From the sequence record PP526765: a stretch of DNA of 64,000 bases; one strand, given 5' to 3'. The position numbers were made by a program, and so were the translations under genes. Positions 3,744 to 63,593 of the stretch are shown here, piece by piece. Positions within the stretch are counted from its first letter, which is position 1. Each line of letters starts with the position of its first letter. Source of the stretch: Escherichia phage HK3. The notes below the pieces were generated by a model. That model searched no databases. It worked only from the letters and a program-made list of their open reading frames with translations, and had not been told where the DNA came from.

Positions 3744-4208
3744 TTACTTTGGGTATACACTGTCAAGATAAATGTCAGCTTCCATTCTACGTCTGTTTTT
3801 CAGACCGTTTGAAGTGACCTTCTTACCTTTGACCGTAACCTTGTTCCACCACTGCATAGCTTCTGCACAACCGCCCTTATTACCAGCGTTGTGGCGCTTG
3901 ATAAATGTGGAGTCCTGCATAGCTGTGATGCCGATGTTGTATGTTTCACTTACAAGTGCATCGAACTCATTCTGAGAAGTTGGAACCTTGATAGCTTTAT
4001 TCACTGCTGCAACGAACTTCTCAACATCTGCGAGAAGATACTGTTCAGCTTGTTCAGCAGTAATTTTCATACCCATCTTAACAGGTTTTCCGTCCATACG
4101 GATTGTACCATACCCGATTGTCGGGATTCCGGCAGAATCTTCGTAAGCCTCTAACTTCAGACCTTCAAAGAACTTAATAGCTTCTAAACCTTTTCTTGAG
4201 AGTTGCAT
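3744..4208 (-). CDS. endolysin, GH24 (T4/lambda-type) lysozyme
   Basis: FEGLKLEAYEDSAGIPTIGYGT catalytic E/D/T signature typical of phage lysozymes; 154 aa. Confidence 0.85.
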   Translation of the reverse strand: MQLSRKGLEAIKFFEGLKLEAYEDSAGIPTIGYGTIRMDGKPVKMGMKITAEQAEQYLLADVEKFVAAVNKAIKVPTSQNEFDALVSETYNIGITAMQDSTFIKRHNAGNKGGCAEAMQWWNKVTVKGKKVTSNGLKNRRRMEADIYLDSVYPK

Positions 4209-5846: not shown

Positions 5847-6073
5847 TTTTCAGTTCTCCTGCGATTTATGATTTTGCTGCAATAGAGAAACGAAGTAAAC
5901 TCACTGGAAGAAACCATTAAGTGTTGTTCACTAGATTGAGCCATTGCCCTGAAATACATTCCAGTCAAAGCATCGTAGTGACTATTCTTTCCAATTGAGG
6001 TTATATAGCCATGACTCTTTGCAGTTTTATATAAATCTATAATATCTGCGATTTCTAATTGGGAACTACACAT
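5840..6073 (-). CDS. hypothetical protein
   Basis: 77-aa ORF. Confidence 0.3.
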   Translation of the reverse strand: MCSSQLEIADIIDLYKTAKSHGYITSIGKNSHYDALTGMYFRAMAQSSEQHLMVSSSEFTSFLYCSKIINRRRTEKC

Positions 6074-6237
6074 AGATAATCCTCTTGTCTTCTGTAATTT
6101 TGAAAGAACAGGTACAGACCAATTTCAGAGGATGAATAGTAGAGCAACTCTACCCTTTTTGATTCCTTACAGTGATTGGTATTTTTACCTTTCTTCGGGT
6201 TGTTTGATTTTCTCATTAAGTCTCCTTTGTAGAACAA
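6055..6237 (-). CDS. hypothetical protein
   Basis: 60-aa ORF, basic. Confidence 0.25.
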   Translation of the reverse strand: MFYKGDLMRKSNNPKKGKNTNHCKESKRVELLYYSSSEIGLYLFFQNYRRQEDYLCVVPN

Positions 6238-6315
6238 GGCAGACCTACAGCTTTAAGTAAGATGGTACAGTAATCCATACAACAAGTCAAGAACTATTGC
6301 AAGTTAAAAAAGTTG

Positions 6316-6344
6316 TTGACAAAGTACTTGACAAGGTGTAGGCT
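6316..6344 (+). promoter_or_regulatory. candidate promoter with conserved spacer motif (TTGACA-17-TAGGCT)
   Basis: TTGACA 6316-6321; 17-nt spacer AAGTACTTGACAAGGTG contains 13-mer ACTTGACAAGGTG also found at 48275 and 63533. Confidence 0.45.
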
Positions 6345-6465
6345 TATAAATACTTAGAAGATAACTTAAAAGGTTCCTCTAAAAAGGCTATTTAAACAGA
6401 TATCTTTCTGGATATCTATCTTTTATCTTAAAAGCCTTTTAAGAGGTCTTATAAGAGGCATACCA

Positions 6466-6837
6466 ATGAAAAACAGAACAAACAAAGGCCAGTTTAAAAA
6501 AGGCCAGTCTGGAAACCCATCTGGAAGACCAAAAGGCTCTCGTAACAAAAGCTCACTTGTAAAAGCTCAACTGACCATTGATAATTCTGCTGAGTTCGCT
6601 GCAAAGCTGTTTGAGGCGATTGTTACAAGGGACGCGGCTAAGCTTGCAGAGTTCGGTTTGACGACTGACGATGTAAACCTGAAGTCAATGATGGAAGCTG
6701 GTAAAACTATCATGACCCACTCAGCAGGTGAGATGAAAGCCATTGCAGCAGACACTAAGAAGACTCCTGATAATGGTGGTCAACAACAGACAGATAACAA
6801 ACCAACGTTCTCTGCTGTAGCGACTCTCAAAAAATAA
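6466..6837 (+). CDS. hypothetical protein with GNPxGRPKG motif
   Basis: 123 aa; N-terminal GNPSGRPKGSRN motif I recall from a phage/plasmid family of unknown function. Confidence 0.5.
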   Translation: MKNRTNKGQFKKGQSGNPSGRPKGSRNKSSLVKAQLTIDNSAEFAAKLFEAIVTRDAAKLAEFGLTTDDVNLKSMMEAGKTIMTHSAGEMKAIAADTKKTPDNGGQQQTDNKPTFSAVATLKK

Positions 6838-6849
6838 TTTTAAAAGGTG

Positions 6850-6879
6850 TTGACAGACTCTACAAAGTTGCTCTAAAGT
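6850..6879 (+). promoter_or_regulatory. sigma70-like promoter (TTGACA-18-TAAAGT) inside inverted repeat
   Basis: TTGACA 6850-6855, TAAAGT 6874-6879; inverted repeat GACAGACT (6852-6859) / AGTCTGTC (6877-6884). Confidence 0.5.
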
Positions 6880-6916
6880 CTGTCACATCAAACAAAATGA
6901 GAGAAGAGAGTAAAAT

Positions 6917-8332
6917 ATGAGCAAGTTATTTAAACATGCGCACCTTCATGCAGGTCGAACTGAAAATGGTGCTGTAAACCATACTTCATCAATGTCTGCT
7001 CTGGTAGACTTCTACAAAGCCGCTGGTTCAAGCCGTAGCAATGTAGAAATCTTACCAGACCTGTTCTACAAAGCTTTGCGTGAGGATGTTGATGTTGCAG
7101 TTCGTATTTTACTGCATATGCGAGATGTACGAGAAGGTATGGGCGAGCGTAAAGCTTTCCGAACTGTTTTGCTTCAAGCGATTGAAGATAAGGTTTTAGA
7201 ACCTACACAGGTTCTTCGCATTATGGATAAGATTGCAGAACTTGGTCGTTTTGATGACTTCAAAATCTTTGTAGGTACTCGTTTTGAGACAGACGCCTTC
7301 AAACATTTAGAAGCAGCATTACTAGACCCTGCAACAGCAGGTTTAGCAGCTAAGTGGTTGCCACGAGTAAAACCACGCCACAAACAGTTTGTAAAACGTT
7401 TCTGCAAGTTTGCAAACTTAAGTGAGAAGGAGTATCGCACACTGTTGTCTGCACTATCTGATACGGTTGAGCAAAAAATCTCTGCTAATGAGTTTGGTAA
7501 GATTGACTACAGCAAGATTCCTTCACTAGCTGCTGCACGTTACCAAAAACTCTTTAACCGTAAAGATGGTGAACGTTACAAAGCTTACATCGAGTCGCTC
7601 TCAAAGGGTGAGGCTAAGATTAATGCTGGTGCTGTTTACCCATACGATGTGATTAAATCTATTAAGTATGGTAATGCAGATGTTGCTAATGAGCAGTGGA
7701 AAGCACTTCCAAACTGGATGGCAGAAGGTGAAAACATCTTGTGTATGACTGATGTTTCAAGCTCAATGTCTTGGGTGAATCTTGGTTCAATCACTGCCCT
7801 TGATATTGGTGTATCACTTGCTTTGTATGTAGCAGAACGCAATACTGGTTGCTTTAAAGATGAGTTAATGGTTTACTCAACAAACCCTCACTTCATTGAA
7901 CTGAGTGGTGATTTACGAAACCGTCATCGTCAGGTGATGCGTCACGTTGAATATGGCTCAACTAACTTACAAGCAGCTTTTGACCGTATTCTTGAAATAG
8001 GTAAGAGAAACAACTTGACTCAGAAAGATATGCCAAGTAAGCTTATTATCTTCTCTGATATGGAGTTTAATCAGGTTGATGGTGCAAATGGTCATACAAA
8101 CTTTGAAGCAATTCAGAGTAAGTACAAAAAAGCCGGATACGAAATGCCACAACTAGTATTCTGGTACTTAGCAAACCGTAATGGTACTTGCGAAGTATCT
8201 GTTAAGGATAATGGTGTAGCAATGGTATCAGGGTTCTCTCCAGCCACTTTAAAAGCTCTACTTGGTGGTGAGAAGTTTGACCCAATCAGCGTAATGCTCA
8301 AAGCAGTAATGATTGACCGTTATATCTGGTAA
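6917..8332 (+). CDS. vWA-domain protein with Ro60-like architecture (alpha-helical N-domain + C-terminal vWA)
   Basis: 471 aa; MIDAS-like DVSSSMS ... GSTN ... IIFSDME in C-terminal half; helical N-terminal about 270 aa; lies immediately upstream of tRNA array. Confidence 0.6.
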   Translation: MSKLFKHAHLHAGRTENGAVNHTSSMSALVDFYKAAGSSRSNVEILPDLFYKALREDVDVAVRILLHMRDVREGMGERKAFRTVLLQAIEDKVLEPTQVLRIMDKIAELGRFDDFKIFVGTRFETDAFKHLEAALLDPATAGLAAKWLPRVKPRHKQFVKRFCKFANLSEKEYRTLLSALSDTVEQKISANEFGKIDYSKIPSLAAARYQKLFNRKDGERYKAYIESLSKGEAKINAGAVYPYDVIKSIKYGNADVANEQWKALPNWMAEGENILCMTDVSSSMSWVNLGSITALDIGVSLALYVAERNTGCFKDELMVYSTNPHFIELSGDLRNRHRQVMRHVEYGSTNLQAAFDRILEIGKRNNLTQKDMPSKLIIFSDMEFNQVDGANGHTNFEAIQSKYKKAGYEMPQLVFWYLANRNGTCEVSVKDNGVAMVSGFSPATLKALLGGEKFDPISVMLKAVMIDRYIW

Positions 8333-8350
8333 AAAGTTTTAAAAAGGGTA

Positions 8351-8379
8351 TTGACAATGTGTTTGATACCCTTTAATAT
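8351..8379 (+). promoter_or_regulatory. sigma70-like promoter (TTGACA-17-TAATAT) for tRNA array
   Basis: consensus -35 and near-consensus -10 with 17-nt spacer; flanked by inverted repeat AAGGGTAT / ATACCCTT. Confidence 0.65.
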
Positions 8380-8442
8380 GTTCTACATAGAAACGAGATG
8401 AGAGCTTTTCTAAGATACTGAAAAATATTTTAAAAAAGTTCT

Positions 8443-8471
8443 TGACAACCACTAAAAAATAATGTTAAAGT
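8443..8471 (+). promoter_or_regulatory. sigma70-like promoter (TTGACA-17-TAAAGT)
   Basis: TTGACA 8443-8448, TAAAGT 8466-8471; overlapping hairpin CCACT...AGTGG. Confidence 0.5.
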
Positions 8472-8497
8472 GGTTACATAGAGTTTGAAAAGTTTAT

Positions 8498-8574
8498 CTC
8501 TGTTTAGCTCAGCTTGGTAGAGCGTTCCGTTTGGGGCGGTAAGGCCGGAGGTTCAAGTCCTCCAACAGAGACCA
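8498..8574 (+). tRNA. tRNA-Pro (anticodon UGG)
   Basis: manual fold: acceptor CTCTGTT/AACAGAG, D-loop AGCTTGGTA, anticodon loop TTTGGGG, T-arm GGAGG-TTCAAGT-CCTCC, encoded CCA. Confidence 0.75.
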
Positions 8575-8581
8575 AATTAAT

Positions 8582-8659
8582 GTTCCAGTAGACAAAATGG
8601 TATAGTCACCACTCTTTCAAAGTGGATATTTGAGGGTTCAAATCCCTTCTGGAACGCCA
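8582..8659 (+). tRNA. tRNA-Glu (anticodon UUC)
   Basis: manual fold: acceptor GTTCCAG/CTGGAAC, anticodon stem CCACT/AGTGG loop CTTTCAA, T-loop TTCAAAT, CCA. Confidence 0.7.
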
Positions 8660-8666
8660 GTTTTGA

Positions 8667-8740
8667 CAGAAGACCAATTACAGCAAACTTAATCTTATTC
8701 ATCTGAAGGTAAATCGGACAAAGAAGAGATTTGGTCTGGT
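8667..8740 (+). ncRNA. inter-tRNA structured element a (conserved terminal helix)
   Basis: 5' CAGAAGACCAATTACAGCAA ... 3' TTGGTCTGG; terminal 7-bp helix AGACCAA/TTGGTCT. Confidence 0.45.
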
Positions 8741-8750
8741 CATTAAGAAT

Positions 8751-8827
8751 TGCGGGTATAGAGAAAGGGCGTCTCACATGTCTCATTAGCATGGTATCGG
8801 CAGGTTCGACTCCTGCACCCGCCTCCA
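8751..8827 (+). tRNA. tRNA-Met (anticodon CAU; 1:72 mismatch)
   Basis: manual fold: anticodon stem CATGT/GCATG loop CTCATTA, T-arm GCAGG-TTCGACT-CCTGC, acceptor TGCGGGT/ACCCGCC with U1xC72 mismatch, CCA. Confidence 0.6.
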
Positions 8828-8833
8828 AATTTA

Positions 8834-8897
8834 CAGAAGACCGTTTACAGCAATATTTATTAAATTTTTAGCGGAAAAATTGAAAGATACGGTCTGG
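8834..8897 (+). ncRNA. inter-tRNA structured element b
   Basis: 5' CAGAAGACCGTTTACAGCAA ... 3' ACGGTCTGG; helix AGACCGT/ACGGTCT (compensatory to element a); internal hairpin AATTTTT-AGCGG-AAAAATT. Confidence 0.45.
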
Positions 8898-8910
8898 TAA
8901 TACTAAACAT

Positions 8911-8987
8911 GGTTAGGAAGCACATAAGGTATGTGCGGTCGCCTGTTAAGCGAATGGCACAGGGTTCGAATCCCTGACTAACCGCCA
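8911..8987 (+). tRNA. tRNA-Asn (anticodon GUU)
   Basis: manual fold: acceptor GGTTAGG/ACTAACC, anticodon loop CTGTTAA, T-arm CAGGG-TTCGAAT-CCCTG, CCA. Confidence 0.7.
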
Positions 8988-9058
8988 AATTTAGGAGAGA
9001 AGCGATTGCTCACCGATTTGTAAGGTGCAAGTCCTTAGCCTGAATAGAATAATAAAAT

Positions 9059-9145
9059 GTGTCGTTATCCCGTAGATGGTAGCGGTGGGGACTGTAAATC
9101 CCTTGTCATTGAGACTCGGTAGGTTCGACTCCTACACGGCACACC
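9059..9145 (+). tRNA. tRNA-Tyr (anticodon GUA), long variable arm
   Basis: manual fold: acceptor GTGTCGT/ACGGCAC, anticodon stem GGGGA/TCCCT loop CTGTAAA, 15-nt variable arm, T-arm GTAGG-TTCGACT-CCTAC, CCA. Confidence 0.7.
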
Positions 9146-9207
9146 AATTTTGAGAGGGCTATTTAGCCCCTCCCTTAAAGAGTTCTTACGAGTACCCTTT
9201 AAAGGAG

Positions 9208-9281
9208 CAGAAGACCAAATACAGCAAGTTACTTAAAATTTCAAGCCAATTCAATTTTGAAAAATTTAAAACTTGGTCTGG
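9208..9281 (+). ncRNA. inter-tRNA structured element c
   Basis: 5' CAGAAGACCAAATACAGCAA ... 3' TTGGTCTGG; same terminal helix. Confidence 0.45.
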
Positions 9282-9294
9282 CTCAACAAATTTA

Positions 9295-9425
9295 CAGAAG
9301 ACCGTTTACAGCAAAACTTAAACAATCTATTTCTCGGTAAAGAAAAGGTGAAGGTTCGATTCCTTCACTCGGCAGATGTCGAGTTGGTGTAATGGTAGCA
9401 CTTAAGATGATAAACAACGGTCTGG
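9295..9425 (+). ncRNA. candidate Y-RNA-like (YrlA-like) RNA: terminal helix enclosing circularly permuted tRNA-like domain
   Basis: 5' CAGAAGACCGTTTACAGCAA ... 3' ACGGTCTGG helix; inside: T-arm GTGAAGG-TTCGATT-CCTTCAC (9348-9368), closed acceptor-like hairpin ACTCGGC-AGAT-GTCGAGT (9367-9384), D-arm GTGT-AATGGTA-GCAC (9387-9401); no anticodon arm. Confidence 0.5.
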
Positions 9426-9576
9426 TAATTATCTTTGCAGTAGCTTATGTGGCTAATTATATCGTCCCATGAGTGCCGATGAATTTCCTTAGCATGATTC
9501 TAGATTAGCTTAATAGGAAATGACTCTACAGACCCTTTAGCAAGGTCTGCGTAGGTTACTGCAAAGATAATTTAAT

Positions 9577-9652
9577 AGAAGTGTAGCAGAATGGTGATGC
9601 GGCAGACTTTTAATCTGATAGGTGATGGGTTCGAATCCCTCCACTTCTACCA
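9577..9652 (+). tRNA. tRNA-Lys (anticodon UUU)
   Basis: manual fold: acceptor AGAAGTG/CACTTCT, anticodon stem GCAGA/TCTGA loop CTTTTAA, CCA; T-stem weak (3 bp); homologous to Lys-CUU gene with compensatory changes. Confidence 0.6.
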
Positions 9653-9656
9653 ATAT

Positions 9657-9733
9657 GGTTCAGTCGCAGATAAGGTAATGCAGGGGTCTCATAAGCCCTA
9701 TGAATGTGGGTTCGATTCCCATCTGAGCCTCCA
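9657..9733 (+). tRNA. tRNA with anticodon CAU (Met or Ile-lysidine type)
   Basis: manual fold: acceptor GGTTCAG/CTGAGCC, anticodon stem GGGGT/GCCCT loop CTCATAA, T-arm GTGGG-TTCGATT-CCCAT, CCA. Confidence 0.65.
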
Positions 9734-9735
9734 AT

Positions 9736-9811
9736 GCTGTGAAAGCACATATGGATGTGCATTCGGCTGATAACCGAAAGGAAGAAGGTTCGAATCCTTC
9801 TCACAGTACCA
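9736..9811 (+). tRNA. tRNA-Ile (anticodon GAU)
   Basis: manual fold: acceptor GCTGTGA/TCACAGT, D-arm GCAC-ATATGGAT-GTGC, anticodon stem TTCGG/CCGAA loop CTGATAA, T-arm GAAGG-TTCGAAT-CCTTC, CCA. Confidence 0.8.
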
Positions 9812-9826
9812 ATTTCAATAAAGTTG

Positions 9827-9855
9827 TTGACATTGAGATGTGACCACTTTATAGT
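9827..9855 (+). promoter_or_regulatory. sigma70-like promoter (TTGACA-17-TATAGT) internal to tRNA region
   Basis: TTGACA 9827-9832, TATAGT 9850-9855. Confidence 0.6.
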
Positions 9856-10058
9856 AACCTTAGTTTTCGTTGCGTAGCGTCTATTTTGCAAATTTAAAAT
9901 AAATGCAAACGACAATGTTTTTCTGGCAGTAGCTTGATAGGCTAAACACCAGTGAGGTCTTCCAATCCCTCATCAAAGAATTTGGCGTACTAGCCCACGG
10001 TATGATTAATAAGGTGGGCATCTTTAAGGGTTTTTTAAGAGAGTCTTTAAAGATTAAT

Positions 10059-10135
10059 GCACCCTTAGTTCAACTGGACAGAACAAATGACTTCTAATCA
10101 TTAGGTTACAGGTTCGAATCCTGTAGGGTGTGCCA
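10059..10135 (+). tRNA. tRNA-Arg (anticodon UCU)
   Basis: manual fold: acceptor GCACCCT/AGGGTGT, D-arm GTTC-AACTGGACA-GAAC, anticodon stem AATGA/TCATT loop CTTCTAA, T-arm ACAGG-TTCGAAT-CCTGT, CCA. Confidence 0.8.
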
Positions 10136-10277
10136 AATAGTTAGCAGATTGCTTAGACGACCTTATCGGGTCTCCGTGTAGGGAGGTGGTCTGTATCTCA
10201 TGTTTTCCAGAACATGTAAATAATCTGAGAAGGGGCTTTACAGTGTTGAGATAATACGGTAAGCTTCGAATTATAGT

Positions 10278-10360
10278 ATGGGACGATGTTAAGACTCTAA
10301 GGCATGAGCAACGGCTTCCAACACCGTTTCAAAGGGATTCAACTCCTCCGTCCCATGCCA
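10278..10360 (+). tRNA. atypical tRNA-like gene (possible tRNA-Trp, anticodon CCA) with extra nucleotides between acceptor and D-arm
   Basis: perfect 7-bp acceptor ATGGGAC/GTCCCAT + G + CCA; anticodon-like loop TTCCAAC; D-region 8 nt longer than canonical; weak T-stem. Confidence 0.3.
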
Positions 10361-10373
10361 AAGTCTTATTAGG

Positions 10374-10461
10374 GGTAGGTAGCGGCTAATGGTAGCCAAA
10401 CTGTCTTGAAAACAGTTGCCACTGTAGAGATACGGTGAGGGTTCGACTCCTTTACTTACCG
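10374..10461 (+). tRNA. tRNA-Ser (anticodon UGA), long variable arm
   Basis: manual fold: acceptor GGTAGGT/ACTTACC, anticodon stem ACTGT/ACAGT loop CTTGAAA, about 20-nt variable arm, T-arm GAGGG-TTCGACT-CCTTT. Confidence 0.7.
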
Positions 10462-10617
10462 CCTAATAAGATTTAAAGCCAAGCTTCATTCGGATGTTGC
10501 TTTGGTATCCCTCGTGTATTGTCGTACACACTGATAAAGCACCTAGTAGGTGTCACGGAGAAGAGATAATATCAAGCTCTCCAAAGGTTCTAGTCACCGG
10601 ATTAAACAAGACTATGC

Positions 10618-10639
10618 AAAGACCTGTTTAGGTCTTTTT
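10618..10639 (+). terminator. terminator-like hairpin within tRNA region
   Basis: AAAGACC-TGTTTA-GGTCTTT followed by TTT. Confidence 0.3.
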
Positions 10640-10718
10640 AGAGGGCTTCTAAGGTTATTACAGCTTGTTGTGGAACCTTGTTGCTTAGGTTCTTAGAAGT
10701 TCTCTAAAAAGATTTAAT

Positions 10719-10795
10719 GCACCTATAGCCCAACTGGTAGAGGCAGCAGACTTAGAATCTGCTCAGTGTGAGTTCGAATCTCTCTAGGTGTACCA
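10719..10795 (+). tRNA. tRNA with anticodon UAG (Leu by code) but short variable arm
   Basis: manual fold: acceptor GCACCTA/TAGGTGT, anticodon stem GCAGA/TCTGC loop CTTAGAA, 5-nt variable loop, T-loop TTCGAAT, A73, CCA. Confidence 0.55.
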
Positions 10796-10802
10796 AATTA
10801 AT

Positions 10803-10878
10803 GCAGGTGTAGCAAAATGGTTATGCGGCTGACTCTTAATCAGTAAGACGATGGTTTCAATTCCCTCCACCTGTACCA
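10803..10878 (+). tRNA. tRNA-Lys (anticodon CUU)
   Basis: manual fold: acceptor GCAGGTG/CACCTGT, anticodon stem GCTGA/TCAGT loop CTCTTAA, CCA; paralog of Lys-UUU with compensatory stem changes. Confidence 0.6.
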
Positions 10879-10884
10879 GACATT

Positions 10885-10960
10885 GGGGATGTAGTTTACA
10901 TGGTTAAAACATAAGTTTTGCAAACTTAAGTACAGGGTTCAATTCCCTGCTTCTCCACCA
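10885..10960 (+). tRNA. tRNA-Ala (anticodon UGC)
   Basis: manual fold: acceptor GGGGATG/CTTCTCC with G3-U70 wobble (Ala identity), D-arm GTTT-ACATGGTTA-AAAC, anticodon stem TAAGT/ACTTA loop TTTGCAA, T-arm CAGGG-TTCAATT-CCCTG, CCA. Confidence 0.7.
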
Positions 10961-10966
10961 ATTAGT

Positions 10967-11041
10967 GCATCCATAGTTTAAACGGGAAAATTACAGTCTT
11001 CCAAACTGAGGTTGAGGGTTCGATTCCCTCTGGATGCTCCA
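10967..11041 (+). tRNA. tRNA-Gly (anticodon UCC)
   Basis: manual fold: acceptor GCATCCA/TGGATGC, anticodon loop CTTCCAA, T-arm GAGGG-TTCGATT-CCCTC, CCA. Confidence 0.7.
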
Positions 11042-11047
11042 AATAAT

Positions 11048-11124
11048 GCTGCTTTCGTATAATTGGCTATTACACATCCCTTGTAAGGATGGAAATGCAG
11101 GTTCGAGTCCTGTGAGCAGCACCA
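11048..11124 (+). tRNA. tRNA-Thr (anticodon UGU)
   Basis: manual fold: acceptor GCTGCTT/GAGCAGC, anticodon stem CATCC/GGATG loop CTTGTAA, T-arm GCAGG-TTCGAGT-CCTGT, CCA. Confidence 0.75.
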
Positions 11125-11219
11125 ATTCAGAGGTCAAGTGAAAGACCGCTGGTGTCAACTGAAGACCGTAACAAATTCCACGGAGTTGAGTTAGCGGCAC
11201 AACTTCAGACCTCTTTCAT

Positions 11220-11294
11220 ACTCGCTTAGTTTATATGGTAAAACACCACCCTTACAAGATGAAGAAAAAGGTTCAAGTCCTTTAGTGAGTACCA
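11220..11294 (+). tRNA. tRNA-like gene, possible tRNA-Val (anticodon UAC); weak anticodon stem
   Basis: acceptor ACTCGCT/AGTGAGT, D-arm GTTT-ATATGGTA-AAAC, T-arm AAAGG-TTCAAGT-CCTTT, CCA; anticodon stem only 3/5 paired. Confidence 0.4.
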
Positions 11295-11295
11295 T

Positions 11296-11373
11296 GTTCC
11301 AATATCCCAATTGGCAGAGGATGCAAGCTCAAACCTTGTACTAGTGACGGTTCGAATCCGTCTTGGAACACCA
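11296..11373 (+). tRNA. tRNA with anticodon CAA (Leu by code) but short variable arm
   Basis: manual fold: acceptor GTTCCAA/TTGGAAC, Leu-like D-loop AATTGGCAGAG, anticodon stem GCAAG/CTTGT loop CTCAAAC, 6-nt variable loop, T-arm GACGG-TTCGAAT-CCGTC, A73, CCA. Confidence 0.55.
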
Positions 11374-11487
11374 ATTTTGGGAGAGCACTATGAGTGATAA
11401 GTCAATAGCAAAAAAGTTTAGAGCGTCATACCTAAACAGACGTAAAAACAAAGATTGTGAAAAACTGTATGGTGTTCTTGTAGGTAA

Positions 11488-11563
11488 GCAGGATTAGTTC
11501 AAATGGATAGAGCAGCAGTCTACGAAGCTGTTAATAGGGGTTCGAATCCCTTATCCTGCGCCA
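11488..11563 (+). tRNA. tRNA-Arg (anticodon ACG)
   Basis: manual fold: acceptor GCAGGAT/ATCCTGC, D-arm GTTC-AAATGGATA-GAGC, anticodon stem GCAGT/GCTGT loop CTACGAA, T-arm AGGGG-TTCGAAT-CCCTT, CCA. Confidence 0.75.
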
Positions 11564-11582
11564 ATTTTAAGAGGCTATTTAG

Positions 11583-12140
11583 ATGAGATATTTGAAGTAT
11601 GCTTCATGGATTTTCCTAGCTTTGTTAGACCCATTGGCAGCAACCTTAGCAGTTATCTTAGCACCTTTTGTAGTTCCATTCTACAGTGAGAAGAAAGGGC
11701 ACTTACCTTTCGGCTTCAGATGGATGGAGACATATGACAACCCAATTGATGGTGATAAAGGTCATGTTGAACGATGGGCTAAGATTAGAAAGATTGGTAA
11801 GCTTGGTGTCTATATGCAGAGAGTCGGTTGGCTCTGGAGAAACAAAGCTTATAACTTCTCTTACCATGTGTTAGGAAGAGATGTAAAAGATGTTACTAAG
11901 TGGAAAGGTAATATCAACGTAAGCTCTGACCCTGAAGATAATCAGACAGGTTATCTCCTAATGTGGAACAGTAATGCTTGGGGATTATTCGCTTTTATCC
12001 CATCAATTAAAGTCTTTGGTAAACAATTCTACTGGAGAATTTATATTGGGTGGAAACTAAAAAGTGTTGTCCCAGAAGAAAGAGCATTCTCAAGGGAAAG
12101 AGTTATGTTGGCATTCTTTATTCATCCACTGAGAAAGTAA
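11583..12140 (+). CDS. hypothetical membrane-anchored protein embedded in tRNA array
   Basis: 185 aa, ATG with AAGAGG upstream; N-terminal hydrophobic segment ASWIFLALLDPLAATLAVILAPFVVPF. Confidence 0.5.
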   Translation: MRYLKYASWIFLALLDPLAATLAVILAPFVVPFYSEKKGHLPFGFRWMETYDNPIDGDKGHVERWAKIRKIGKLGVYMQRVGWLWRNKAYNFSYHVLGRDVKDVTKWKGNINVSSDPEDNQTGYLLMWNSNAWGLFAFIPSIKVFGKQFYWRIYIGWKLKSVVPEERAFSRERVMLAFFIHPLRK

Positions 12141-12148
12141 AGATTTAA

Positions 12149-12224
12149 AGGGGATTAGTTTACAAGGTTAAAACCTCGGTCTTTGAAATCGAAGAAGTTG
12201 GTTCAATTCCAACATCCCCCGCCA
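12149..12224 (+). tRNA. tRNA-Gln (anticodon UUG)
   Basis: manual fold: acceptor AGGGGAT/ATCCCCC (A1xC72), D-arm GTTT-ACAAGGTTA-AAAC, anticodon stem TCGGT/ATCGA loop CTTTGAA, T-arm GTTGG-TTCAATT-CCAAC, CCA. Confidence 0.65.
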
Positions 12225-12226
12225 AT

Positions 12227-12305
12227 GCTCCATTACTCCAATTGGCAGAGAGGCCAGACTTAAAATCTGTGTTATGTATCGGTTCGAATCCGATATGGAG
12301 TACCA
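12227..12305 (+). tRNA. tRNA with anticodon UAA (Leu by code) but short variable arm
   Basis: manual fold: acceptor GCTCCAT/ATGGAGT, Leu-like D-loop AATTGGCAGAG, anticodon loop CTTAAAA, 7-nt variable loop, T-arm ATCGG-TTCGAAT-CCGAT, A73, CCA. Confidence 0.55.
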
Positions 12306-12310
12306 AATTT

Positions 12311-12386
12311 AGCGGTATAGCATAACTGGCAATGCAACAGTCTCTGAAGCTGTCTTATTAAGGTTCAAATCCTTATGCCGCTGCCA
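12311..12386 (+). tRNA. tRNA-Gln (anticodon CUG)
   Basis: manual fold: acceptor AGCGGTA/TGCCGCT, D-arm GCAT-AACTGGCA-ATGC, anticodon stem ACAGT/GCTGT loop CTCTGAA, T-arm TAAGG-TTCAAAT-CCTTA, CCA. Confidence 0.7.
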
Positions 12387-12417
12387 CTTCTAAGGATTCT
12401 TACGAGAGTCCTTAAAT

Positions 12418-12493
12418 GTGGCCTTATCATAAACGGTAATGACCCATGCTGTGAACATGGTCTATACGGGTTCAAATCCCGTAGGTCACCCCA
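12418..12493 (+). tRNA. tRNA-His (anticodon GUG)
   Basis: manual fold: acceptor GTGGCCT/AGGTCAC, D-arm TCAT-AAACGGTA-ATGA, anticodon stem CCATG/CATGG loop CTGTGAA, T-arm ACGGG-TTCAAAT-CCCGT, C73, CCA. Confidence 0.75.
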
Positions 12494-12498
12494 ATTTA

Positions 12499-12575
12499 TA
12501 GTCCAAGTAGCTTATATGGTTAAAGCGCGTGTCTGAAAAACATGAGAAGAGGGTTCAAATCCCACTGGATTACCA
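12499..12575 (+). tRNA. tRNA-Phe (anticodon GAA); acceptor/D junction atypical
   Basis: D-arm GCTT-ATATGGTTA-AAGC, anticodon stem CGTGT/ACATG loop CTGAAAA, T-loop TTCAAAT; acceptor TAGTCCA/TGGATTA leaves 4 nt before D-stem. Confidence 0.5.
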
Positions 12576-12591
12576 ATTTCAAAGGTGCTTA

Positions 12592-13326
12592 ATGAAAGAG
12601 ATGACAGAACAAGGTAAGGAGATTTTTAATCTCTTAAAAACTGGTAAAGGGTTTTCTAACCCCCTTATTACTGGTGCAGCAGTTCTCGGTGGAACCGTAG
12701 CTGCCTCTACATCACTTGTAAGCTCTATTAGCTCTGTAACAGACCCTACAATAAAGGATAAACTTATTGCTGCTGGACTTACAACAGTTCTGCTTAACAG
12801 CTTTACAACGAGTCTGACAAGCACTACAGCAACTACTAAGACCCTAACAGACTATGGTCAAAAATCTATTGATGAGTTTTCATCACGTATGCAGGTAGCA
12901 AAGGGATACTCCAATGTTATGGGTGCAGTAGGAGAACAAGTTGGTTGTACACCATTTAGTGGTATTATGGGTGTTGCTACAGAGTATGGTCAAAAAGCTA
13001 TGGATACAATTAACAGCACACTAGATGGCGTTAATGATGTATTAAGCGACTTACAGGATGCTATTGATAAAGGTCTTAATACTATTTCTGATTTAGCTAA
13101 CCAAGCTGTTAGTAAGATTAATGAAGGTATCTCAAAGATTACAGCTTATGCAGATGAAGTTGTGCAGATGATTGAAGAAGAAGCTGCCCTTATTGCAGAG
13201 TACCTTAAAACGAATATCAATGGGTTCTTAGCAGGTATCTTACCAGACTGGTTTGATGATGCTTGTAAAACTGGTGTGATTGACACTATTGCAACACCAG
13301 AAATGAAGAACGCATTACAGAAATAA
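12592..13326 (+). CDS. hypothetical Ser/Thr-rich protein
   Basis: ATG at 12592 with AAAGGTG upstream (track ORF from 12529 would overlap tRNA-Phe); 244 aa. Confidence 0.5.
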   Translation: MKEMTEQGKEIFNLLKTGKGFSNPLITGAAVLGGTVAASTSLVSSISSVTDPTIKDKLIAAGLTTVLLNSFTTSLTSTTATTKTLTDYGQKSIDEFSSRMQVAKGYSNVMGAVGEQVGCTPFSGIMGVATEYGQKAMDTINSTLDGVNDVLSDLQDAIDKGLNTISDLANQAVSKINEGISKITAYADEVVQMIEEEAALIAEYLKTNINGFLAGILPDWFDDACKTGVIDTIATPEMKNALQK

Positions 13327-13327
13327 C

Positions 13328-13420
13328 GGAAGATTAACCCTAAAAGGTAAGGGAGCAGTTTGCTAAACTGCCAGTAGCTGAGAAATCGGTGTACCAGTTC
13401 AAGTCTGGTATCTTCCTCCA
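13328..13420 (+). tRNA. tRNA-Ser (anticodon GCU), long variable arm
   Basis: manual fold: acceptor GGAAGAT/ATCTTCC, anticodon stem GCAGT/ACTGC loop TTGCTAA, long variable arm, T-arm ACCAG-TTCAAGT-CTGGT, CCA. Confidence 0.7.
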
Positions 13421-13424
13421 ATTT

Positions 13425-13500
13425 GAATCCGTGACAGAAATGGCTATGTACCTGTCTGCAAAACAGGTTTATAAGGGTTCGAGTCCCTTCGGATTCTCCA
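13425..13500 (+). tRNA. tRNA-Cys (anticodon GCA)
   Basis: manual fold: acceptor GAATCCG/CGGATTC, anticodon stem CCTGT/ACAGG loop CTGCAAA, T-arm AAGGG-TTCGAGT-CCCTT, U73 (Cys identity), CCA. Confidence 0.75.
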
Positions 13501-13537
13501 AGTTATTTTACTCTCTCTCAATTAAAATAATAATAAT

Positions 13538-13597
13538 GCCCTGCTATAAGTATTCTTCCTTTCGCTACCGAAGAGTATTTTTAGACAGGGCTTTTTT
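13538..13597 (+). terminator. rho-independent terminator after tRNA array
   Basis: long imperfect hairpin GCCCTG...CAGGGC followed by TTTTTT (13592-13597). Confidence 0.6.
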
Positions 13598-13662
13598 ACA
13601 GAGTTATACTTTATAAGAAGACTTATACAGTATGTCTCTGACGTACATTGTGGTTTCTCCTT

Positions 13663-13686
13663 GACGGTCTCTGTACCGTCTTTTTT
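13663..13686 (+). terminator. rho-independent terminator
   Basis: GACGGT-CTCTGT-ACCGTC followed by TTTTTT. Confidence 0.6.
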
Positions 13687-13722
13687 AAGGAGAAACATGG
13701 TTAATTATTTGGAGAAAACATA

Positions 13723-13923
13723 ATGAGCGAGACCGTTTATAAAGAACTTTATGAAGCCAATAAAAAGCTGGAATTTATGCAGACTACTATTATGGCAATT
13801 GCAGACAGATTGTCTGTAGCAACAGGTATTGATATCAAAGAAGCCTCTATGGATGCACTTCTTGATGCTGTTGATGCAAAGTTCGAAGTTAAGAAAGAAG
13901 AGACTGCTACAGACTCTGAATAA
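13723..13923 (+). CDS. hypothetical small protein preceding large terminase
   Basis: 66 aa, ATG with GGAG RBS; position compatible with small terminase but too short to assert. Confidence 0.4.
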   Translation: MSETVYKELYEANKKLEFMQTTIMAIADRLSVATGIDIKEASMDALLDAVDAKFEVKKEETATDSE

Positions 13924-13944
13924 TTCTATTTGCGGAGGTGCTTA

Positions 13945-15546
13945 ATGGACTTAAATGCTGTTAAGCAGAAGCGAGTGGAAGATGTTAGGAAAGTCCTAGC
14001 TGGAGAGTTGGGGCTTTCTGATGAAGTAAAAGAAATTATCAAATCATTCGGTAAAGACCCCTCTAAATTCCTTCCAACTCAAATTCTGACTTTATTAAGA
14101 TACACACCAGACCAAGTTAGACTTATCTTCAAATTGATGACTGATAAGAACTATGTAGCCCCTCAGCCGGGTTCTCAAGAGGTGTTTTTAAATACTAATG
14201 CTGACTTGGTTTTATATGGTGGTGCTGCTGGTGCTGGTAAAACTGCTGCATTGTTAATGGACTCTTTAAGGTTTATTGAAGACCCTAACTATAATGCTGT
14301 ATATTTCCGTCGAAATACAACACAGTTACAAGGTGGTTTATGGCCTGCTGCAAAGAAACTATTTGGTAAGTTTGGTGGGGTTCCTCACGAGCAGAAGATG
14401 ACTATCACATTCCCTTCTGGGGCAACTATCAAGTTCACCTACCTAGAACTTGAAAAGCACGCTGAAGGTCATCAGGGTATTGAATACTCAGCTATTTACT
14501 TTGACGAAGGTACACACTTCTCTGCTTCACAGATTTCATACCTACAGACTCGTCTGCGTTCTGGTGCTGAAGGTGACTCATACATGAAGATTTCCATGAA
14601 CCCAGATAGAGACCACTTCATTTATGATTGGGTAGAACCCTTCTTAGATGAAGAAGGTTACCCAGACCCTGAGAAGTGCGGTCGTATTCGTTGGTATGTT
14701 ATGAATGATGGTGTGATGGTTTCTGATTGGGAAAGAGACAAGATTCTTGAAATGTTCCCTCTTGAGATTCCTCAGACATACACCTTCATCTCTGGTACGA
14801 TTGATGATAACCCAATTCTTGACTTCTTAGAACCTAAATATCGTGGTAAGTTGGAAAACAACACACCTGTAAACGTTGCAAGACTTCGTTTCGGTAACTG
14901 GAAGGCTCGTGCAGAAGGTTCAAACTATTGGCAAAGACAATGGTGTGAGATTGTTGATTCACTCCCAGAAGATGTGTTTGATGTCAGAGCATGGGACTTA
15001 GCAGCGACTTTACCATCTGAAATTAACCCTAACCCAGACTGGACAGCGGGTGTTAAGATGGGTAAATCTAAAAAAGACGGTTGCTATTATATCATTGATG
15101 TAGTAAGATTTAGAGATAGACCCTCTGGAGTCGAAACACAAATTAATTTGACTGCTGAAAGTGACGGTAAGCGAACTGGTATTTTTATCCCTCAAGACCC
15201 AGGCGCTGCTGGTAAATCCTATGCAACATCCCTCATCAGGAAACTTGCCGAGAAAGGTTATCGCGCAAGAGCTAAACCAACAAATAAAGATAAAGTTACC
15301 CGCTTTGCGGGATTTTCTGCTGCTTCGGAAGCTGGACTTGTAAAAGTCTTGAGAGGCAGTTGGAACGAAGCTTACTTTCAAGAACTTGAAGGCTTTTGTG
15401 GTGATGGTAAAACGAAAGATGACCAAGTGGATGCTACCAGTGATGCTTTCAACAGTCTTAACGAAGTTAAATTATTCAAGCCACCATCAATGGGTGCTCA
15501 CACAGATTTAGTGAGAGGAAACCCATATGAGGGGCTTAGACGTTGA
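13945..15546 (+). CDS. terL: terminase large subunit
   Basis: Walker A LYGGAAGAGKT, Walker B-like IYFDEGTHF; C-terminal nuclease-sized domain; ATG 13945 with GGAGG 6 nt upstream (track start 13930 is TTG). Confidence 0.85.
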   Translation: MDLNAVKQKRVEDVRKVLAGELGLSDEVKEIIKSFGKDPSKFLPTQILTLLRYTPDQVRLIFKLMTDKNYVAPQPGSQEVFLNTNADLVLYGGAAGAGKTAALLMDSLRFIEDPNYNAVYFRRNTTQLQGGLWPAAKKLFGKFGGVPHEQKMTITFPSGATIKFTYLELEKHAEGHQGIEYSAIYFDEGTHFSASQISYLQTRLRSGAEGDSYMKISMNPDRDHFIYDWVEPFLDEEGYPDPEKCGRIRWYVMNDGVMVSDWERDKILEMFPLEIPQTYTFISGTIDDNPILDFLEPKYRGKLENNTPVNVARLRFGNWKARAEGSNYWQRQWCEIVDSLPEDVFDVRAWDLAATLPSEINPNPDWTAGVKMGKSKKDGCYYIIDVVRFRDRPSGVETQINLTAESDGKRTGIFIPQDPGAAGKSYATSLIRKLAEKGYRARAKPTNKDKVTRFAGFSAASEAGLVKVLRGSWNEAYFQELEGFCGDGKTKDDQVDATSDAFNSLNEVKLFKPPSMGAHTDLVRGNPYEGLRR

Positions 15547-25201: not shown

Positions 25202-33232
<8,031 letters not shown>

Positions 33233-63532: not shown

Positions 63533-63578
63533 ACTTGACAAGGTGATGTGGGTCTTGATAGGCTTACATCACCTTTTT
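63533..63578 (+). terminator. terminator hairpin after nrdD overlapping conserved 13-mer
   Basis: ACTTGACAAGGTG at 63533-63545; hairpin GGTGATGT (63542-63549) / ACATCACC (63566-63573) followed by TTTTT. Confidence 0.55.
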
Positions 63579-63593
63579 ATTTGGAGTTGCATC

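What the first reader, a model, noticed from the sequence alone, without database searches (positions are those of the whole stretch)
11583..12140. Membrane-anchored protein gene embedded in the middle of the tRNA array
A 185-aa ORF with an N-terminal hydrophobic anchor interrupts the tRNA array. A 35-aa ORF (11390-11497) with a good RBS overlaps the 5' end of tRNA-Arg(ACG). Protein genes inside phage tRNA clusters are often accessory.
Basis: inference. Interest (0 to 1): 0.35.

Follow-up and report, generated by a model that had tools for sequence, protein, structure and literature searches.

The report
Conserved phage membrane gene inside tRNA array
The ORF is a real, conserved gene of a Felix O1-like phage for a single-pass membrane protein (family DUF7338) that in other phages sits at the head of the host-lysis gene cluster, so it is most likely a lysis protein (possibly the long-missing Felix O1 holin), but this has never been tested.

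Summary
ORF 11583-12140 (+, 185 aa) lies 19 nt after tRNA-Arg(ACG) and 8 nt before tRNA-Gln(UUG) in a 25-tRNA array of a Felixounavirus.

It is a genuine gene:
- intact in all 25 relatives examined, with variable sites 44/14/117 by codon position;
- orthologous to Felix O1 ORF48, whose transcript was detected by RT-PCR;
- present in about 87% of Felixounavirus records.

It belongs to Pfam DUF7338, a large family found almost only in phages (840 clusters). The predicted fold (pLDDT 94.7) has no match among solved structures.

Two context patterns recur. In large virulent myoviruses the gene lies inside or just downstream of tRNA genes. In small-genome phages it lies between tail-fibre genes and the lysis genes, next to four unrelated endolysin types. 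Aeromonas phage PX29 has no T4-type holin, and this gene plus a lysozyme fill the holin slot.

A 2015 annotation called it a "class III holin", and the same group dropped that call in 2019. It often co-occurs with canonical holins. A lysis role is likely; holin identity is unproven.

The 35-aa ORF is a sporadic mini-cassette (33 of about 255 genomes) with only a weak coding signal. The object is already known, its function is open, and interest is moderate.

The parts
11583..12140 (+). Gene for a 185-aa DUF7338-family single-pass membrane protein. It is the ortholog of Felix O1 ORF48 and of Mushroom gp87, which is annotated 'holin'.
   Evidence: ORF. Pfam PF24027 at 209.7 bits and phrog_2143 at E 7e-81. 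Coding signature 44/14/117 across 25 loci. Orthologs identified.
11598..11681 (+). Coding region for the N-terminal transmembrane helix (residues ~6-33). It contains a conserved mid-helix acidic residue (D16) and the invariant P28.
   Evidence: Hydropathy. AF2 helix 2-33 with pLDDT 91-98. Invariant columns.
11688..12137 (+). Coding region for the basic (net +12, pI ~10) alpha+beta soluble domain. It carries the invariant motifs TxDNxxxGD and WLWRNxxY. The fold has no match in the PDB.
   Evidence: Alignment A1. AF2 models. Foldseek against the PDB gave best E 0.33 and 0.64 with TM <0.2. Charge.
11569..11574 (+). Shine-Dalgarno sequence AAGAGG, 8 nt upstream of the ATG and 6 nt after the 3' end of tRNA-Arg.
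   Evidence: Sequence. Leader unstructured.
11488..11563 (+). tRNA-Arg(ACG), immediately upstream. It is absent in some relatives, e.g. Mushroom.
   Evidence: Presence/absence variants.
12149..12224 (+). tRNA-Gln(UUG), 8 nt downstream of the stop codon.
11390..11497 (+). 35-aa basic mini-ORF (phrog_13848). It lies in a 108-nt cassette between tRNA-Leu(CAA) and tRNA-Arg and reads 10 nt into tRNA-Arg. It is a sporadic presence/absence polymorphism.
   Evidence: Present in 33 records. Precisely deleted, or replaced by a different 70-aa ORF, in relatives. Variable sites 2/4/9 by codon position.
9827..9855 (+). Best sigma-70-like promoter match upstream in the array (TTGACA-17-TATAGT). It equals 'P45' of the Felix O1 paper and is a candidate promoter for co-transcription of the tRNAs and the gene.
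   Evidence: 11/12 match; overall count of hits not above chance. PMC3185647.
13663..13680 (+). First terminator-like hairpin on the + strand downstream of the gene, after the last tRNA. No terminator-like site lies between the gene and its flanking tRNAs.
3744..4208 (-). Soluble lysozyme-type endolysin of the phage (ortholog of Mushroom gp94). It lies 7.4 kb away on the opposite strand and has no signal or TM segment, so it needs a holin.
   Evidence: ORF. Mushroom annotation. No TM segment.

Best explanation
The ORF is a real, expressed, near-core gene of a Felix O1-like myovirus. It encodes a single-pass inner-membrane protein of the phage-specific DUF7338 family: an N-terminal TM helix followed by a ~150-aa basic alpha+beta domain of unknown fold.

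Its most likely role is in host lysis at the cytoplasmic membrane. It would act either as the holin that lets the phage's soluble lysozyme reach the cell wall, or as a holin-associated lysis factor. I put the lysis role at about 0.55, with holin proper at about 0.35-0.4 within that.

Shown: gene reality, family membership, conservation, transcription, and the lysis-cassette context in other phages.

Inferred: the lysis function in this phage, the membrane topology, and the mechanism.

The position inside the tRNA array is best explained in two parts, both inferred:
(a) Co-transcription with the tRNAs. There is no promoter or terminator between them, so the mRNA ends would be generated by tRNA processing.
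(b) Evolutionary hitch-hiking. tRNA genes and the homing endonucleases in these arrays provide recombination points that move small cassettes, including this gene, between unrelated phages.
For: Gene reality:
- Pfam and PHROG hits.
- 25/25 intact orthologs, variable sites 44/14/117 by codon position, 513 synonymous vs 177 nonsynonymous codon differences.
- 221 records against 255 TerL records.
- The Felix O1 ORF48 transcript was detected by RT-PCR (PMC3185647).

Membrane anchor: 168 of 173 family members have an N-terminal TM segment.

Lysis link across 26 non-redundant loci without nearby tRNAs:
- Same-strand downstream genes within 2.5 kb include GH108 x4, Phage_lysozyme x3, Amidase_2 and M23.
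- They also include 3 Pfam holins and 3 Rz spanins.
- Upstream genes are baseplate, tail-fibre and tail-fibre-assembly genes.
- The gene is often translationally coupled to its neighbours, as in L058 and L075.

L089 has the order tail fibre, tail-fibre assembly, DUF7338, 96-aa ORF, GH108, Rz/Rz1.

Aeromonas phage PX29:
- The whole 222-kb genome lacks any T-holin homolog (best E 2.2).
- The same query finds T homologs in 43 other Aeromonas phage records.
- The T4 't' slot holds DUF7338, a soluble T4-type lysozyme and an Rz-like 81-aa protein.

The Felix-type endolysin is soluble and no holin has been established for the genus (PMC3185647; PMC6486253). The CPT annotators called this gene a class III holin (PMC4392139; GenBank KP143762).

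tRNA linkage and transfer:
- 7 of 8 lineages at the 80% level have a same-strand tRNA 16-1095 nt upstream, and 4 lie inside arrays.
- The tRNA+DUF7338 unit sits in different core-gene contexts in KP15 and JS10.
- Felix-type and T4-like proteins are 58-62% identical, as close as T4-like genera are to one another.
- The spacer cassettes next to the gene are gained and lost exactly at tRNA borders.
- HNH endonucleases sit in the Felix O1 array.
Against: No experiment shows any function.

DUF7338 co-occurs with canonical holin families:
- Phage_holin_3_7 in L057 and GTA_holin_3TM in L061 and L077; L088 carries an unscanned ORF that resembles the L061 one.
- A 2-TMD holin-like ORF in L070/L075.
- The T holin in T4-like phages; PQ824230.1 has both.
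So it is not generally the sole holin.

Its soluble domain is conserved across very different phages (15 invariant residues). This is atypical of holins and suggests a conserved host ligand or a catalytic site.

There is no homology to gpt (hhalign probability 0.14%). The fold search found no structural similarity to gpt or to any other solved structure.

Topology is ambiguous. K+R counts favour C-in while net charge favours N-in, and the domain has median net charge +7.

In this phage the gene is not next to the endolysin or the spanins. It lies behind sigma-70-like promoters together with the tRNAs. Felix O1 ORF48 RNA peaked at 5 min, although that table also lists capsid genes as 5 min.

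Other small multi-TMD ORFs exist in the window: 61132-61338, 63546-63929 and 37248-37619.

CPT's later Felix-like phage Meda paper states that a holin was not identified.
Confidence: 0.55

Rival explanations
1. It is a lysis accessory or regulator, not the holin. The membrane-anchored protein would modulate holin triggering (as an antiholin or pro-holin) or act on a conserved envelope component (peptidoglycan, lipid, Lpp or a host membrane protein) to assist envelope breakdown. This overlaps with the best explanation's broader lysis claim; the confidence given here is for this specific sub-case.
For: It sits in lysis cassettes that already contain a recognisable holin, endolysin and spanin (L057, L061, L070/75, L077, L088, L089). 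It co-exists with the T holin in T4-like phages. Invariant polar and aromatic residues (T50, D52, R86, N87, Y77, Y90, several Trp) are kept across phages with unrelated holins and four unrelated endolysin types, which argues for a conserved non-phage ligand. Extra lysis-cassette genes are typically regulators, e.g. phiKZ gp143 (PMC12894885).
Against: In PX29 the t-slot cassette has no other obvious holin candidate once p320 is read as Rz-like, and T is absent from the genome. No holin has been identified in Felixounaviruses. No similarity to any known antiholin or enzyme was found.
Confidence: 0.28
2. It has a non-lysis membrane function, expressed early together with the tRNAs. Candidates are superinfection exclusion, protection of the envelope from incoming phages, another host-takeover function, or an anti-defence function. 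Its position next to tail-fibre and lysis genes in small phages would then reflect a common 'moron' insertion site.
For: In this phage the gene lies behind sigma-70-like promoters with the tRNAs, and Felix O1 ORF48 RNA peaked at 5 min. In KP15 and JS10 the gene lies in regions of mostly small hypothetical ORFs between conserved core genes. The junction downstream of tail-fibre genes is a classical site for cargo genes (my own knowledge of P2 and lambda). The family occurs mostly in myoviruses. PhageMaP reports membrane/lysis genes of Bas63 as mostly dispensable.
Against: In L058, L075 and L070 the gene overlaps its neighbours' stop or start codons inside the late operon, unlike autonomous morons. 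Downstream association with lysis genes in 9 of 26 lineages is far above chance. There are no PADLOC hits. High conservation across phages with different receptors argues against receptor masking. The RT-PCR timing table is unreliable, since it lists the capsid gene as 5 min.
Confidence: 0.15
3. The ORF is a chance or decaying reading frame in a tRNA spacer with no function.
For: None for the 185-aa ORF. For the 35-aa ORF, sporadic distribution and a nearly equal synonymous/nonsynonymous ratio (15:11) are compatible with this reading.
Against: For the 185-aa ORF: family-wide conservation (840 representative clusters), strong third-position bias, a confident AF2 fold, and a detected transcript.
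Confidence: 0.01

Closest known systems
Phage T4 holin gpt (class III/IIIa holin, Pfam Phage_holin_T) and its T5 homolog
   Same: Similar size (185 vs 218 aa), with a single TM helix followed by a large globular C-terminal domain. It serves, or is proposed to serve, a phage whose lysis genes are scattered and whose lysozyme is soluble. In Aeromonas phage PX29 the DUF7338 gene occupies exactly the t locus (tail-fibre genes ... asiA) in a genome without t. The Mushroom paper explicitly calls this 'a T4-like lysis system'.
   Different: No sequence or profile similarity, and the fold search found no structural similarity. There is practically no N-terminal cytoplasmic domain: the TM helix starts at residue ~6, whereas gpt has ~30 residues that bind RIII. 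Topology is unproven. It co-occurs with gpt in many T4-like phages. The Young lab stated in 2026 that all class III holins known are gpt homologs, plus phiKZ gp142.
phiKZ gp142 (class IIIb holin) with lysis regulator gp143
   Same: A single-TMD lysis-cassette protein with one large soluble domain, in a cassette that carries an extra regulator gene. This shows that non-gpt single-TMD holins and fifth lysis genes exist (PMC12894885).
   Different: In gp142 the large domain is N-terminal and cytoplasmic, whereas here it is C-terminal. No homology was tested or seen. gp142 function was shown experimentally; DUF7338 function was not.
Protein genes co-transcribed with tRNAs (E. coli thrU-tyrU-glyT-thrT-tufB operon; ORFs and the SegB homing endonuclease in the T4 tRNA region; mitochondrial 'tRNA punctuation')
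   Same: A protein-coding gene is flanked tightly by same-strand tRNA genes (19 nt and 8 nt spacers) with no intervening promoter or terminator. The mRNA ends would therefore be set by tRNA processing. Homing endonucleases are present in the array.
   Different: These comparisons rest on my own knowledge and were not tested here. No transcript-end mapping exists for this phage.
Pfam DUF7338 (PF24027) / phrog_2143
   Same: Full-length match far above threshold. The gene is a typical member.
   Different: The family has no assigned function. No paper in the searched library mentions it.

Membership tests
Pfam DUF7338 (PF24027) / phrog_2143 | Full-length profile match above the curated threshold | tested here: met
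   209.7 bits against a cut-off of 27, covering residues 1-184 of 185. phrog_2143 at E 7e-81.
Pfam DUF7338 (PF24027) / phrog_2143 | N-terminal TM helix plus the conserved TxDNxxxGD and WLWRNxxY motifs | tested here: met
   Invariant P28, T50, D52, G57, W83, W85, R86, N87, Y90 and others. 168 of 173 members have an N-terminal TM segment.
Class III holin, gpt/T family (T4 t, T5 hol) | Sequence or profile homology to gpt | tested here: not met
   No Phage_holin_T hit at E<=1. hhalign probability 0.14%. tblastn of T against the window found nothing.
Class III holin, gpt/T family (T4 t, T5 hol) | Single TMD, N-in/C-out, large periplasmic C-terminal domain | tested here: inconclusive
   A single TMD with a large C-terminal domain is confirmed. 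Orientation is ambiguous: flank K+R is 0.73 (N) vs 1.26 (C), flank net charge is +0.67 vs -0.30, and the domain has median net charge +7.
Class III holin, gpt/T family (T4 t, T5 hol) | N-terminal cytoplasmic segment (~30 aa) for RIII binding | tested here: not met
   The TM segment starts at residue ~3-6 across the family.
Holin (functional class, any family) | Small membrane protein with at least one TMD | tested here: met
   185 aa, one TMD.
Holin (functional class, any family) | Encoded next to the endolysin and/or spanins | tested here: inconclusive
   Not in this window: the endolysin at 3744-4208 is on the opposite strand, 7.4 kb away. It does hold for homologs in 9 of 26 other lineages and in PX29.
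Holin (functional class, any family) | Is the only or required hole-former: no other holin in the genome | tested here: inconclusive
   PX29 lacks T and Felix-like phages have no established holin. However, canonical holins co-occur with DUF7338 in L057, L061, L077 and T4-like phages, probably also in L088. The window also has other multi-TMD ORFs.
Holin (functional class, any family) | Timed, energy-poison-triggerable lethality that releases endolysin | not testable with these tools
   Requires expression and complementation experiments. None were found in the literature searched.
i-spanin (Rz-like) | N-terminal TMD plus a periplasmic coiled-coil domain, paired with an o-spanin lipoprotein gene | tested here: not met
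   The soluble domain is a globular alpha+beta fold with a 5-stranded sheet, not a coiled coil. The genus has separate i- and o-spanin genes, Mushroom gp124 and gp123.
Known anti-phage defence, exclusion or annotated bacterial families | Profile match in PADLOC or NCBIfam | tested here: not met
   No hits at E<=1.
Lytic transglycosylase / SLT-like muramidase (considered because of ET...YMQ...AYN strings) | Conserved catalytic Glu-Ser, GLMQ and AYNxG motifs and a lysozyme-like fold | tested here: not met
   E49 and Q79 are not conserved in the family alignment. No SLT Pfam hit. No lysozyme-like structural match.

The most novel reading that the evidence does not exclude
DUF7338 is a new, widespread class of single-TMD phage lysis proteins: a holin family with a fold not found in the PDB, unrelated to gpt. 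It would serve as the missing holin of Felix O1-like phages and of T-less T4-like phages such as PX29. In large virulent phages its mRNA would be carved out of a tRNA precursor by RNase P/RNase E ('tRNA punctuation'), which would tie the dosage or timing of a lysis protein to tRNA-operon expression. The tRNA-flanked unit would spread between unrelated phage families by recombination at tRNA genes.
Probability: 0.12. Interest if true: 0.7.

Novelty: new member of a known kind. Interest (0 to 1): 0.4.

Why it matters
Felix O1 is a classical diagnostic and biocontrol phage whose holin has never been identified. The genome paper lists five guesses, one annotation group named this gene in 2015, and the same group reported "holin not identified" in 2019.

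This analysis turns a vague "membrane ORF among tRNAs" into a specific, testable candidate. The family is large and found almost only in phages, its predicted fold has no PDB match, and it keeps company with lysis genes in many unrelated phages. In at least one T4-like phage it takes the place of the T holin.

If confirmed, it would add a third kind of single-TMD holin or a new type of lysis factor. The Young lab has just restated that class III holins are confined to gpt homologs, so the field's picture would change.

The recurrent tRNA linkage also bears on how tRNA arrays act as exchange platforms for protein genes between phage families.

If the gene proves unrelated to lysis, it remains a conserved, expressed membrane protein of unknown role in more than 500 sequenced phages.

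Tried and rejected
1. Homology to T4 holin T: rejected. There is no Pfam hit, hhalign probability is 0.14%, and tblastn is negative in the window, in Mushroom and in PX29.

2. Structural neighbours: Foldseek against the PDB was run with the full-length model and with the soluble domain alone. Nothing scored below E 0.3 and all TM scores were under 0.2. The viral library BFVD returned only uncharacterised family members. A PDB sequence search found nothing.

3. NCBIfam and PADLOC: no hits.

4. Lytic-transglycosylase-like motif (ET...YMQ...AYN): rejected, because those residues are not conserved in the family.

5. i-spanin: rejected on fold, and because separate spanin genes are present.

6. The spacer holding the 35-aa ORF as a hidden RNA gene: no Rfam match, and only mild structure (z -2.07).

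7. Prophage copies in bacterial genomes for more contexts: only 6 loci were recovered.

8. Per-gene knockout fitness of the Bas63 ortholog from PhageMaP: the supplementary tables are not held, and the main text gives only category-level statements.

9. Promoter scan: the number of sigma-70-like hits is not above the shuffled expectation (23 vs 20.3), so timing cannot be derived from it.

10. Membrane topology from charge statistics: ambiguous.

11. Literature search for DUF7338: no papers.
Full report
**Observation.** The window is a Felixounavirus (Felix O1-like myovirus). The region 11200-12400 is 98.1% identical to Escherichia phage vB_EcoM_DE7 and matches 254 phage records. ARAGORN finds 25 tRNA genes between 8498 and 13500, all on the + strand. 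Rfam confirms the two tRNAs that flank the ORF. The ORF 11583-12140 (ATG start, 185 aa) begins 19 nt after tRNA-Arg(ACG) and ends 8 nt before tRNA-Gln(UUG). AAGAGG lies 8 nt before the ATG in an unstructured leader. Residues ~6-35 are strongly hydrophobic. The 35-aa ORF 11390-11497, with GGGAGAG upstream, overlaps tRNA-Arg by 10 nt.

**It is a real gene.**
- The protein matches Pfam DUF7338 (PF24027; 209.7 bits, cut-off 27) and phrog_2143 (E 7e-81), both of unknown function.
- In 25 Felixounavirus loci the ORF is always intact at 558 nt. Variable sites number 44/14/117 at codon positions 1/2/3, with 513 synonymous against 177 nonsynonymous codon differences.
- tblastn finds it at >=80% identity in 221 records, against 255 records for the genus TerL. 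It is therefore near-core, not accessory.
- In Felix O1 itself it is ORF48 (28262-28819, same tRNA neighbours). Whichard et al. detected its transcript by RT-PCR, maximal at 5 min. The same table lists the major capsid gene as 5 min, so I use it as evidence of expression only (PMC3185647).
- Gp48 is not among the virion proteins identified there.

**The family.**
- A profile search over 1.84 billion representative proteins returns 840 clusters (368 at E<=1e-10). Nearly all are stand-alone proteins of 160-210 aa.
- tblastn finds the family in 556 phage records: Felixounavirus, many T4-like genera (Slopekvirus, Moonvirus, Dhakavirus, S16-like and others), Aeromonas Angelvirus, jumbo phages and smaller phages.
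- Only 6 loci were recovered from 185,579 bacterial species genomes, so the family is found almost only in phages.
- The alignment shows 15 invariant residues, grouped as TxDNxxxGD and WLWRNxxY, plus P28 and an acidic residue inside the TM helix.
- AlphaFold2 gives a confident model (pLDDT 94.7, pTM 0.85). It has a helix at 2-33, a helical subdomain, and then a five-stranded sheet.
- The soluble domain modelled alone is less confident (pLDDT 87.7). This hints that the TM helix packs against the domain.
- Foldseek finds no solved structure resembling either model. Only uncharacterised phage proteins match in BFVD.
- There are no hits in the PDB by sequence, in NCBIfam or in PADLOC. No paper mentions DUF7338.
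- The soluble domain is very basic: net +12 here, median +7 across the family. Charge statistics do not settle the topology.

**Context 1: tRNAs.** The tRNA linkage is not peculiar to this phage.
- Seven of eight non-redundant (80%) lineages of large virulent phages have a same-strand tRNA 16-1095 nt upstream of the gene. Four lineages have tRNAs on both sides.
- A lineage with only 33% identity also has a tRNA-Met ending 16-20 nt before the start codon (L062, L064).
- In KP15 the tRNA+DUF7338 unit lies between gene 31 and the vs/30.x genes. In JS10 it lies between 57B/trna.2-4 and e.6. The unit therefore moves as a block.
- Felix-type and T4-like proteins are 58-62% identical, no more distant than T4-like genera are from each other (59-80%). 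This implies exchange between otherwise unrelated phage families.
- Within Felixounavirus, the spacer upstream of the gene exists in at least six states: with or without the 35-aa ORF; with or without tRNA-Arg; with an alternative 70-aa basic ORF; or with an extra 80-aa ORF whose stop overlaps the DUF7338 start.
- The breakpoints of these variants lie exactly at tRNA borders.
- Felix O1 has three HNH endonuclease genes in the array.

I infer that tRNA genes and homing endonucleases act as recombination points, and that the gene is co-transcribed with the tRNAs. No terminator-like site separates them. The nearest strong sigma-70-like match is at 9827-9855, the "P45" of the Felix O1 paper, and the first + strand terminator is at 13663-13680. 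None of this has been shown experimentally. PX29 is a counter-example: it has its own tRNA array at 83-101 kb but keeps the gene elsewhere.

**Context 2: lysis genes.** In phages without nearby tRNAs, the gene sits at the junction between tail-fibre genes and the lysis cassette. Across 26 non-redundant loci:
- same-strand genes within 2.5 kb downstream include nine peptidoglycan hydrolases of four unrelated families (GH108 x4, Phage_lysozyme x3, Amidase_2, M23);
- they also include three Pfam holins and three Rz spanins;
- upstream genes are baseplate, tail-fibre and tail-fibre-assembly proteins.

Individual examples:
- L058: tail fibre | DUF7338 | 89-aa 1-TMD protein | lysozyme.
- L075: 2-TMD holin-like ORF | DUF7338 | amidase, with overlapping stop and start codons.
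- L061: DUF7338 | GTA_holin_3TM | GH108.
- L057: DUF7338 | Phage_holin_3_7 | endolysin.
- L089: tail fibre | tail-fibre assembly | DUF7338 | 96-aa ORF | GH108 | ... | Rz/Rz1.

The T4-like Aeromonas phage PX29 is the most telling case. The T4 t locus (tail-fibre genes ... asiA) holds DUF7338, a soluble T4-type lysozyme and an 81-aa Rz-like protein. The complete genome has no T homolog (best E 2.2), although the same T4 query finds T in 43 other Aeromonas phage records.

**What is known.**
- The Felix O1 genome paper found no holin-lysin cassette and listed five other ORFs as possible holins.
- The Center for Phage Technology annotated the ortholog in phage Mushroom as "holin". [quoted passage not shown] Moogle has "a putative holin".
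- The label has spread to a few GenBank records.
- The same centre's 2019 Felix-like phage Meda paper says "a holin was not identified".
- A 2026 Young-lab paper states that all class III holins are gpt homologs, with phiKZ gp142 as a new class IIIb.
- I found no experiment on this family.

**Weighing.** A lysis role is the best-supported reading:
- repeated, tightly coupled placement in lysis cassettes with interchangeable endolysin types;
- replacement of t in PX29;
- a soluble endolysin and no identified holin in the genus.

Whether it is the holin is uncertain:
- It co-occurs with canonical holins in several cassettes and with T in T4-like phages; PQ824230.1 has both.
- Its soluble domain is far more conserved than is usual for holins. 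That points to a conserved host ligand or a catalytic site.
- It is unrelated to gpt.
- The window has other small multi-TMD ORFs: 61132-61338 (68 aa, 2 TMDs, core in 257 records, not labelled holin in any of the 30 sampled rows), 63546-63929 (3 TMDs), and 37248-37619 (1 TMD plus coiled coil, Felix gp79).

I therefore assign about 0.55 to a lysis function, with holin proper at about 0.35-0.4 within that. I assign about 0.15 to a non-lysis membrane function such as superinfection exclusion, and about 0.01 to no function.

**The 35-aa ORF.**
- It matches phrog_13848.
- It occurs in only 33 records, always abutting tRNA-Arg.
- It is cleanly absent, or replaced by another small basic ORF with the same ribosome-binding site, in close relatives.
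- It shows only a weak third-position bias (2/4/9; 15 synonymous against 11 nonsynonymous changes).
- No RNA family matches the spacer.

It may be translated, but it is a dispensable mini-cassette.

**Verdict.** The object is already catalogued as Felix O1 ORF48, Pfam DUF7338, and sometimes "holin". Its function is genuinely open. The analysis supplies a concrete, testable lysis hypothesis and a documented tRNA linkage. Interest is moderate.

Noticed in passing
window 12529-13326 (+); likely true start near 12592: A second protein gene embedded in the tRNA array, between tRNA-Phe and tRNA-Ser. It matches DUF7217 / phrog_2114, with weak similarity to tape-measure-like PHROGs. Its Felix O1 ortholog ORF49 was identified by mass spectrometry as a virion structural protein (Gp49), so a structural gene sits among the tRNAs.
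   Followed up: partly
window 6917-8332 (+): A 471-aa ORF directly upstream of the tRNA array. It is annotated 'RNA-binding protein' in Felix O1 and 'DUF2828' in phage CL1. The PhageMaP paper describes the Bas63 ortholog (gp130) as Ro60-like and speculates that some 'tRNAs' are Y-RNA-like partners. Rfam found no Y RNA or YrlA in 6000-14000.
   Followed up: partly
L001 3383-3625; L009, L010, L020, L025, L027, L028 about 5745-6000 (relatives, not in the window): In many Felixounaviruses an 80-aa hydrophilic ORF (MQTL(T/I)VVEHEN...) is inserted between tRNA-Arg and the DUF7338 gene. Its TGA stop overlaps the DUF7338 ATG (ATGA), which suggests translational coupling. Function unknown.
   Followed up: no
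L021 and L026, spacer between tRNA-Leu(CAA) and tRNA-Arg: A different 70-aa, Cys- and Arg-rich ORF (MKPYGRHGKVEIASCGCCASH...) occupies the slot of the 35-aa ORF. It has the same ribosome-binding site and likewise reads into tRNA-Arg, so this inter-tRNA slot is a swap site for small basic ORFs.
   Followed up: no
window 37248-37619 (+); also PX29 p320, L058 6583-6852, L088 1148-1402, L075 5356-5676: Small proteins with one N-terminal TMD followed by a coiled coil recur near DUF7338 genes. In the window such a protein lies at the end of the late tail-fibre block (Felix gp79, phrog_4038). Some give weak Rz-like spanin PHROG hits (E 4e-7 to 9e-3). They could be partners of DUF7338, extra i-spanin-like proteins, or the real holins.
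   Followed up: partly
window 61132-61338 (+) and 63546-63929 (+): A 68-aa ORF with 2 TMDs and a charged C-terminus (phrog_4532; present in 257 records, next to the glutaredoxin gene) and a 127-aa ORF with 3 TMDs. Both have classical holin-like shapes. For the 68-aa ORF, none of the 30 sampled records labels it holin.
   Followed up: partly
window 8751-8827 (+): ARAGORN calls a tRNA-Met here, but Rfam's tRNA model does not report it even at E<=1. The Felix O1 paper gives its counterpart a low Cove score (28.9). It may be a degenerate or atypical tRNA.
   Followed up: no
PX29 (GU396103) 169333-169617 and whole genome: PX29 is annotated with an rIII gene; in T4, RIII is the cytoplasmic antiholin acting on the T holin (PMC12894885). 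Yet the genome has no detectable T homolog. Either the rIII annotation is wrong or RIII has another partner there.
   Followed up: no
PV390658.1 (phage vB_EcoM_P54), GenBank taxonomy line: This 88-kb Felix O1-like genome is filed under Straboviridae; Tevenvirinae; Tequatrovirus, which looks like a taxonomy error in the record.
   Followed up: no
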